DNA of 64,000 bases. Source: Eledone cirrhosa (lineage: Eukaryota). The stretch covers positions 202,368,001-202,432,000 of the forward strand of contig OZ024743.1 of assembly GCA_964016885.1 (NCBI GenBank). The letters are read 5' to 3'. This document shows positions 6,752 through 7,432 of the stretch, one piece after another. The notes under the pieces were generated by a model that was given only the letters and a program-made list of their open reading frames with translations, was not told the origin of the DNA and made no database searches. How positions within the stretch are numbered: position 1 is the stretch's first letter; the number at the start of each line of letters is the position of its first letter. Both the position numbers and the translations under genes were made by a program.

Positions 6752-7113
6752 ATAGCGAATGTATGTATAGTATATTTAGCAATATACCGTATGTTTAATT
6801 AAACACATTTTGAAGACCATACGCTATCGGTTTTAAAGTAGTGGCTATGTCACCTACTTCTTTTCGACGAAAGAAGGGAGATAAGCTGACACTCTCTTTC
6901 ACGCTTTTGACGTTCATCAGAGCCACGCACTCCCCGCTTTCACCGAAAATTATAGATGCAGGATTCTTATAGAATTCCACTAATAATCAGGAGCTGATTA
7001 TACAGAGCGATTGCCGGTCCAGCAAAAATTAGGTATTAGGATTGGTGCTCTGAAATAGCGATGTATAGATGAATGTACGTATAGTATATTTGGTAAATAC
7101 CATATGTTTAATT
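6752..7113 (-). mobile_element. Retrozyme-like HHR repeat family A, ~1.15 units (period ~314 bp)
   Basis: atagtatattt...atgtttaatt occurs at 6767 and again at 7081; contains HHR 6884-6924; homologous to 7126-7432 and 17843-18471. Confidence 0.75.
6884..6924 (-). ncRNA. Minimal type I hammerhead ribozyme (stem III degenerate)
   Basis: ggct-CTGATGA-acgt caaaa gcgt-GAAA-gagagtg-TC-agct. Confidence 0.7.
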
Positions 7114-7125
7114 TGTTTTTGTTTT

Positions 7126-7432
7126 TTTTTGCTGAACCGGCAATCGCTCTGTATAATCAGCTCCTGATGATTAGTGAATTTCTATAAGAATCCAGCTTCT
7201 ATAATTTTCGGCGAATGCGGGATGTGCGCGGTTCTGATGATCGCCAAGAGCGTGAAACAGACTATTAGCTTCTCTGCGTTCTTTAGCCGAAAAGATGTAA
7301 GGGACATAGTCACTTCTTTAAAACCGATAGCGTATGGTCTTCAAAATGTTTTAATTAAACATACTGTATATTGCCAAATATACTATACATACTTTCATGT
7401 ATACATCGCTATTTCAGAGCACCAATCCTAAT
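7126..7432 (+). mobile_element. Family A unit, inverted and circularly permuted relative to 6752-7113
   Basis: One ~307 bp unit opened between gcaaaaa and attaggattgg, which are contiguous inside the neighbouring copy (~7022-7045). Confidence 0.75.
7230..7270 (+). ncRNA. Minimal type I hammerhead ribozyme
   Basis: ggtt-CTGATGA-tcgc caaga gcgt-GAAA-cagacta-TT-agct. Confidence 0.65.

What the first reader, a model, noticed from the sequence alone, without database searches (positions are those of the whole stretch)
6752..7432. Family A copies are circularly permuted and show compensatory changes in the ribozyme stems
Seen: this locus is a diverged homologue of the 311-bp unit (shared acattttgaagacc, ttgccggtcc.gca.aaattag, tgctctgaaatagcgat). 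One copy is ~1.15 units (period ~314). The adjacent inverted copy is one unit opened at a different point. Between subfamilies CTGATGA/GAAA are invariant, while stem I (agtc/gact vs ggct/agct), stem II (attct/agaat vs acgt/gcgt) and the flanking stem (ttctcgataaaagc/gcttttatcgagaa vs tttcgacgaaag/ctttcaccgaaa) change and keep pairing. Inference: selection acts on RNA structure, and copies arise by reverse transcription of a circular or multimeric template.
Basis: partly seen in the sequence, partly recalled or inferred. Interest (0 to 1): 0.85.

Follow-up and report, generated by a model that had tools for sequence, protein, structure and literature searches.

The report
Penelope-copied hammerhead retrozyme with covarying subfamilies
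This is one old, decayed copy of a 314-base non-coding repeat whose self-cutting-RNA fold is kept across several diverged subfamilies, and whose two mirror-image arms stop at two fixed points, as if a Penelope jumping-gene enzyme had copied a likely circular RNA from both sides of a DNA break.

Summary
The repeat and the covariation are real; free circular permutation is not. The locus (6757-7433) is one head-to-head, two-armed insertion of a type I hammerhead unit that has thousands of relatives in this 3-Gb animal genome. On the ribozyme strand, 181 of 199 outer ends fall at two sites about 34 nt apart, mostly followed by (TA)n; only the 5' ends scatter. In 56 of 61 pairs with both ends at these sites, each arm uses a different one. 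A coding Penelope-like element in this genome shows the same footprint. Arms cross the cleavage site and reach 12.6 units, so the template was a circle or an uncut multimer. Across four subfamilies, 18 of 20 variable stem pairs change on both sides. The core is not invariant: C3-G8 becomes U3-A8 in one subfamily, and stem III stays self-complementary, which suits dimer cleavage. Both window arms have a broken stem III. Verdict: a metazoan non-LTR retrozyme behaving as a non-autonomous Penelope element. The scan reported the two-arm footprint before on other DNA of this genome; the cross-subfamily covariation and the coding-PLE control are added here. Cleavage, expression, circles and the partner enzyme are untested.

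The parts
6757..7113 (-). Arm 1, subfamily A, 1.14 units (unit positions u271-314 then u1-314); outer end 2-4 nt short of site 1, abutting a younger repeat
7114..7125 (.). 12-nt T-rich filler at the head-to-head junction of the two 5' ends
   Evidence: sequence; arm limits
7126..7433 (+). Arm 2, subfamily A, 0.98 unit (u43-314, u1-37), ending at site 2
6884..6924 (-). Type I hammerhead of arm 1 (core starts at 6920); C15.2 changed to G, so stem III is broken and it is probably inactive
6861..6949 (-). Ribozyme domain of arm 1 closed by the 13-bp flanking stem
7230..7270 (+). Type I hammerhead of arm 2 (core starts at 7234); G16.2 changed to A, probably inactive
7205..7293 (+). Ribozyme domain of arm 2 with the flanking stem
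7346..7383 (+). Two covarying hairpins just upstream of the two end sites; candidate recognition region for the reverse transcriptase (inferred)
7399..7433 (+). About 34-nt tail between end site 1 and end site 2, present on this arm's end only
7434..7450 (.). (TA)n tract, the inferred target site
   Evidence: 157 of 186 arm ends have (TA)4 beside them
17832..18471 (-). Young subfamily B dimer (311-nt units) with intact hammerheads starting at 18312 and 18001
6578..6756 (-). Not family A: 5'-truncated copy of a separate, younger repeat (97-98% to its relatives, 2,162 first-look candidates); left limit approximate

Best explanation
The locus is one decayed two-armed insertion of a non-coding hammerhead repeat (a metazoan non-LTR retrozyme) that was likely written into DNA by a Penelope-like element's reverse transcriptase and GIY-YIG endonuclease, working from both strands of a cut in (TA)n on a probably circular RNA. 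Steps: (1) tandem units are transcribed (inferred). (2) Two hammerheads pair through the self-complementary stem III and cut out monomers (structure and covariation shown; cleavage untested). (3) Monomers are ligated into circles (by analogy with PMC7229834; untested). (4) The PLE protein binds the conserved hairpins upstream of two start sites about 34 nt apart and 133-167 nt downstream of the cleavage site (ends shown; binding inferred). (5) Each cut DNA strand primes at one site and copying runs through the cleavage junction for a variable length (shown by the copies). (6) The two cDNAs are joined at their truncated 5' ends, giving head-to-head arms with the tail on one side (structure shown, joining inferred). 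(7) Copies then decay neutrally, while subfamily masters keep the fold.
For: Ends: 181 of 199 outer 3' ends in two windows covering 10% of the unit; 79 head-to-head, 42 one-arm, 1 tail-to-tail among 122 insertions; 56 of 61 pairs use one site each, p 3e-12; subfamily D 25 of 29 arm ends at the two sites; (TA)4 beside 157 of 186 ends. Internal control: a PLE family with a 938-aa RT plus GIY-YIG frame has two fixed ends about 64 nt apart in (TA)n, one per arm in 4 of 4 two-armed loci seen, and its site 2 ends in the same short motif as subfamilies C and D. Literature: tail at one end, inverted 5'-truncated copy, (TA)n bias (PMC8557442, passages); two RT start sites and both strands cut and extended (PMC11167929, parts 1-2 of 4). 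Template: 3 of 186 5' ends near the cleavage site against 4.1 expected; 28 of 39 arms in the short-probe sample span it and 8 exceed one unit; B arms reach 12.6 units; 14 of 14 within-locus B arm pairs show no difference against 22 of 366 identical between loci. Structure.
Against: No autonomous partner with sequence homology was found in 50 GIY-YIG loci, of 10,597 first-look candidates; the control PLE's tail is about 64 nt, not 34. At L135 units read T T C T C T and T T C T at one position, which a single monomeric circle does not explain. In old subfamily A the two arms share few minor alleles (7.5 per kb against 2.6 between loci, with 60 per kb unshared), and the window's arms share 1 of 21 differences each. 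In the anole PLE uncut RNA was the dominant template in vitro (PMC11167929). Most A copies have a GUU cleavage triplet (53 of 74). Circular folds are as stable on the opposite strand. No Rfam hammerhead match at gathering score.
Confidence: 0.8

Rival explanations
1. Same PLE mobilisation, but the template is an uncut linear multimeric transcript from a genomic array, with no circle needed.
For: L135 needs a multi-unit template or gene conversion; uncut RNA is the main substrate for the anole PLE (PMC11167929); homogeneous B arrays of more than 12 units exist as possible sources.
Against: The catalytic 3-8 pair and the stem III self-complementarity are kept under change, so long multimers should cut themselves; A>G changes on the ribozyme strand are fixed through all units of both arms (L139: four in 14 units); no long arrays seen for A, C or D among the loci fetched. 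Both routes may operate.
Confidence: 0.25
2. Freely permuted copies from random opening of an RNA circle, mobilised by any RT or by DNA-level rolling circle.
For: 5' ends are spread round the whole unit; arms exceed one unit.
Against: 181 of 199 3' ends at two sites; 56 of 61 pairs use one site each.
Confidence: 0.02
3. The copies are 5'-truncated ends (pLTR plus tail) of a full-length coding PLE, not an independent non-coding element.
For: Same footprint as coding PLEs; retrozymes derive from pLTRs in Xenopus (10.64898/2026.07.22.740005).
Against: Past site 2 and at 5' ends the arms continue into the next unit, into the other arm or into microsatellite, never into a shared longer sequence in the loci read; no homology to 50 PLE loci.
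Confidence: 0.04
4. Satellite DNA spread by unequal crossing over, with inversions from DNA hairpin repair; the structure is incidental.
For: B forms homogeneous tandem arrays; inverted arms can convert each other.
Against: Dispersed short insertions with fixed, site-alternating ends in (TA)n; covariation of a tertiary catalytic pair; strand-biased A>G in B (6 of 82 A sites against 0 of 98 T sites, p 0.008).
Confidence: 0.02

Closest known systems
Metazoan non-LTR retrozymes (Cervera and de la Pena 2020, PMC7229834; passages and parts 3-4 of 6 read)
   Same: About 310-nt low-GC non-coding units, one type I hammerhead each, tandem and dispersed; U.U at the base of helix II as in axolotl HHR_Amex2; palindromic helix III; PLEs proposed as mobilisers.
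   Different: That paper shows circles and cleavage by experiment (not tested here); in the parts read it does not describe two fixed ends, a tail or head-to-head arms.
Non-LTR retrozymes as non-autonomous PLE derivatives (Li, Clavereau, Pollet 2026, 10.64898/2026.07.22.740005; parts 1-3 of 5 read, supplements closed)
   Same: Same conclusion on origin and mobiliser.
   Different: Their evidence is co-occurrence and pLTR homology, mainly in vertebrates; here it is the insertion footprint, and no pLTR homologue was found.
EN+ Penelope-like elements (PMC8557442 passages; PMC11167929 parts 1-2 of 4; PMC4209133 passages)
   Same: 5' truncation, partial tandems, inverted 5'-truncated copy, 30-40 nt tail at one end from two RT start sites, (TA)n targets, dimer-type hammerheads including a U3-A8 variant.
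   Different: No ORF; the unit is a closed repeat that can be copied for many turns.
U3-A8 hammerhead variants (PMC3088659, passage)
   Same: C3-G8 to U3-A8 covariation, reported there as active in vitro.
   Different: Here it arises inside one retrozyme family and marks an amplified subfamily (199 exact 28-nt cores).

Membership tests
Metazoan non-LTR retrozyme | Type I hammerhead in each unit | tested here: met
   Core, stems I-III and covariation in A-D; the two window arms are decayed; no Rfam match at gathering score
Metazoan non-LTR retrozyme | Short (about 150-400 nt), low-GC units in tandem and dispersed copies | tested here: met
   310-317 nt, about 40% GC in A (base counts), arrays to 12.6 units, 24,477 exact 17-mer matches
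Metazoan non-LTR retrozyme | Non-coding | tested here: met
   No stop-to-stop frame of 150 aa or more overlaps the locus
Metazoan non-LTR retrozyme | Self-cleavage | not testable with these tools
   Needs in vitro transcription
Metazoan non-LTR retrozyme | Expressed as circular RNA | not testable with these tools
   No RNA holder listed
Metazoan non-LTR retrozyme | Target-site duplication | tested here: inconclusive
   Ends lie in (TA)n, so a duplication cannot be resolved
Non-autonomous Penelope-like element | Two 3' ends 30-40 nt apart, tail at one end | tested here: met
   181 of 199 ends; 56 of 61 pairs
Non-autonomous Penelope-like element | 5' truncation with an inverted 5'-truncated copy | tested here: met
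   79 head-to-head against 1 tail-to-tail of 122 insertions
Non-autonomous Penelope-like element | Microsatellite or AT-rich target | tested here: met
   157 of 186 ends
Non-autonomous Penelope-like element | Sequence homology to the pLTR or 3' end of an autonomous PLE | tested here: inconclusive
   None in 50 GIY-YIG loci of 10,597 candidates; only a short shared end motif with the L198 family
Autonomous PLE | RT plus GIY-YIG ORF | tested here: not met
   such ORFs exist elsewhere in the genome
Viroid-like self-replicating circular RNA | RNA-to-RNA replication | not testable with these tools
   No RNA data; the motif scan found the core on one polarity only

The most novel reading that the evidence does not exclude
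A single small RNA circle, cut by a dimeric hammerhead whose pairing palindrome and catalytic 3-8 pair have been re-coded in successive subfamilies, is edited A-to-I and then copied round and round by two Penelope reverse transcriptases primed from the two strands of one break; the genome thus holds a dated series of viroid-like RNA lineages evolving under selection as RNA, with subfamily-specific stem III palindromes that would keep them from cleaving each other.
Probability: 0.4. Interest if true: 0.75.

Novelty: new member of a known kind. Interest (0 to 1): 0.52.

Why it matters
How animal retrozymes get back into DNA has been proposed (circular RNA, PLE enzymes) but, in the papers read and searched here, not shown from insertion anatomy. 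These copies give exact predictions: two RT start sites, one per cut strand, a recognition region of covarying hairpins, and read-through of the cleavage junction. An intact-looking PLE frame in the same genome makes a reconstitution assay feasible. The covariation series (C3-G8 to U3-A8, four different self-complementary stems III) shows selection for cleavage chemistry in a selfish non-coding RNA. The particular locus is only a decayed example.

Tried and rejected
Rfam scan found no hammerhead at gathering score. The repeat finder was swamped by microsatellites. No RNA holder listed; laying two contig sets of unknown kind, one sample, added nothing usable. A strict dimer-circle reading of L135 was tried and dropped once all units were read. 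A pile-up of 5' ends at the cleavage site (linear monomer template) was tested and not found. The partner search in 50 GIY-YIG loci by blastn and nhmmer found only true family copies and other short hammerhead families. The left neighbour was considered as a template-switch partner; it is a separate younger family with no match to the unit. The window's RT frames go with AP-endonuclease and zf-RVT domains (28333-31732) or RT alone (1191-2528), with no GIY-YIG hit. No A>G strand bias in old subfamily A (66 against 68) and none significant in C (21 against 12, p 0.16). The B DNA search gave only 10 candidates because common words are skipped, so it is no copy number. R-scape was not available. 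Literature searches with no paper describing this footprint in retrozymes: 0 papers; listings; the library lacks most subscription papers and bioRxiv supplements were closed. The host taxon is not established; 'octopus' and 'cephalopod' were used only as guesses in paper searches.

Full report
Observation. The window holds two inverted copies of a 314-nt unit at 6757-7113 (minus strand, 1.14 units) and 7126-7433 (plus strand, 0.98 unit), 88% alike, and a related 311-nt dimer at 17832-18471. The hammerhead core reads on the minus strand in arm 1 (6920) and in the dimer (18001, 18312), and on the plus strand in arm 2 (7234). Unit positions u below are on the ribozyme strand; the core starts at u151 and the predicted cut follows u183. 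Bases 6752-6756 belong to a separate, younger repeat that abuts arm 1.

Family size. A 17-mer shared by the subfamilies has 24,477 exact matches, array units included, and 0 for the reversed control. First-look candidates, which are not copy numbers and may overlap, were 3,486 for A, 1,416 for C and 1,881 for D. Subfamilies are 12-36% apart. A is old, C and D younger, B very young with arrays up to 12.6 units per arm. A fifth type, E, is represented by one copy.

Ends are fixed, not permuted. I scored 117 distinct fetched loci (repeat fetches of one place dropped; the 20 D loci scored apart), giving 122 insertions and 199 uncut outer 3' ends. Of these 98 fall at site 1 and 83 at site 2, windows that together cover 10% of the unit; 18 fall elsewhere. 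There were 79 head-to-head, 42 one-armed and 1 tail-to-tail insertions. Of 78 pairs with both ends scored, 56 use one site each, 5 use the same site and 17 have one end elsewhere. Two samples were biased to full-length copies and one to copies carrying the 17-mer; the short-probe sample, which leaves the 3' end free, gave 36 of 39 ends at the two sites and 7 of 11 mixed pairs. For D, 25 of 29 arm ends lie at the sites. (TA)4 lies beside 157 of 186 ends. The sites are about 34 nt apart. In the window, arm 2 ends at site 2 in (TA)n and arm 1 ends 2-4 nt short of site 1.

This is the Penelope footprint. PMC8557442 (passages) describes 5' truncation, an inverted truncated copy, a 30-40 nt tail often at one end only and (TA)n targets. 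PMC11167929 (parts 1-2 of 4) shows that a PLE protein cuts and extends both strands, starts at two internal RNA sites that define the tail, and does not need hammerhead cleavage in vitro. As an internal control, a PLE family of this genome with a 938-aa RT and GIY-YIG frame (RT match just under Pfam's cut-off) carries a U3-A8 hammerhead and has two fixed ends about 64 nt apart in (TA)n, one per arm in 4 of 4 two-armed loci seen. No sequence homology to the unit was found in 50 GIY-YIG loci, so the partner is not identified.

Template. A cut linear monomer would give arms of at most about 133 or 167 nt and 5' ends at the cut. Instead 3 of 186 5' ends lie within 3 nt of the cut, against 4.1 expected; 28 of 39 arms in the short-probe sample span the cut and 8 exceed one unit (cut set one base off). 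In B, all 14 within-locus arm pairs (13 loci) show no difference, against 22 of 366 identical pairs between loci, with 10 haplotypes among the loci read. Against a single monomeric circle, L135 has a mixed pattern in both arms, and in old A the arms share few minor alleles. Circle or uncut multimer therefore remains open; I put about 70:30 on circles as the main route.

Covariation. On 22 real copies RNAalifold recovered the flanking stem, stems I and II and two downstream hairpins without being given a structure. For 41 pairs drawn by hand, the majority states of A, B, C and D (4-5 copies each) leave 21 invariant and 20 variable; 18 have a two-sided change, 17 stay paired in all four, 3 have a U.U in some subfamily. 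Fifteen are paired throughout and two-sided, against a mean of 1.2 and a maximum of 7 in 20,000 random partner draws. The tool's count gave 95.6% paired cells and 20 two-sided pairs against 2-4 for slid partners; 9 of 500 shuffles reached 20. The structure was drawn with the sequences in view and there are only four or five lineages, so this is not an R-scape result. Position 3 and 8 change together: T3 and A8 in 37 of 37 C arms, C3 in 67 of 69 and G8 in 68 of 70 A arms; 199 exact C cores. U3-A8 is a known active variant (PMC3088659, passage) also seen in PLEs (PMC4209133, passage). Stem III differs in length and sequence in each subfamily but stays self-complementary, perfectly in B and C and with central mismatches in A and D; homodimers are -6.9 to -20.1 kcal/mol while the hairpin is unstable in A and B, which fits dimeric cleavage as described in PMC4209133. 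Circular monomers fold better than shuffles (z -4.2 to -7.6), equally on the other strand.

This locus. Each arm differs from the A majority at 21 places, one shared. Arm 1 has G for C15.2 (C in 72 of 75 arms) and arm 2 has A for G16.2 (G in 73 of 74), so both ribozymes are probably dead. Substitutions among A copies are strand-symmetric and dominated by C>T and G>A, that is, decay after insertion.

Comparison and verdict. The element meets every testable feature of metazoan non-LTR retrozymes (PMC7229834, passages and parts 3-4 of 6) and of a non-autonomous PLE except pLTR homology. The PLE link has been argued from phylogeny (10.64898/2026.07.22.740005, parts 1-3 of 5; supplements closed). 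A search for retrozyme with target-primed, inverted and rolling gave no paper. Earlier scan notes on this genome reached the two-arm reading for the 310-nt arrays and other families; a word search found none on the covariation. New member of a known kind; interest 0.52.

Noticed in passing
window 6578-6756 (-): Separate young repeat family (2,162 first-look candidates, 97-98% alike) with a hammerhead-like core, 5' truncation and inverted pairs; it abuts arm 1 and probably removed its last bases.
   Followed up: partly
L198 (G000:C1:145868500-145877500), also L199, L203, L206, L207, L209, L217: Intact-looking PLE family: 938-aa RT plus GIY-YIG frame, U3-A8 hammerhead in repeats 4,979 bp apart, two fixed ends about 64 nt apart in (TA)n.
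   Followed up: yes
L200, L201, L204, L208, L213: Several further RT-encoding families beside GIY-YIG matches (21-55% protein identity between families), one with a 1,096-aa open frame.
   Followed up: partly
window 15576 (+): Minimal hammerhead near the end of a C-rich, strongly skewed stretch (about 10400-15693) that ends in (TA)n; the same motif occurs in L069; probably the 3' end of another PLE-type repeat.
   Followed up: no
window 54847 (-); L208 8032-8692: Another hammerhead repeat family, two copies 511 bp apart in L208, with a palindromic stem III and a similar loop 2.
   Followed up: no
L124, L207 7566-7705, L210 3191-3334 and 9702-9838: Short palindromic two-armed hammerhead family whose stem II resembles that of subfamily B.
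   Followed up: partly
L135 (G000:C3:16114000-16123900): B array with a T/C variant in pattern T T C T C T on one arm and T T C T on the other; suggests a multi-unit template or gene conversion.
   Followed up: yes
L104, L133: Further diverged copies with a U3-A8 core, outside subfamily C; whether the change arose more than once was not tested.
   Followed up: no
window 1191-2528 (-) and 28333-31732 (-): LINE-type remains: RT; AP endonuclease, RT and zf-RVT matches in broken frames.
   Followed up: partly
window 63234-63289 (-): Partial tRNA match (33.7 bits), perhaps a tRNA-derived SINE.
   Followed up: no
window 4480-5674, 10483-11144, 21832-22206, 59105-60465: Other long inverted repeats (184-301 nt arms, 93-100% complementary), possibly more two-armed insertions or DNA transposon ends.
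   Followed up: no
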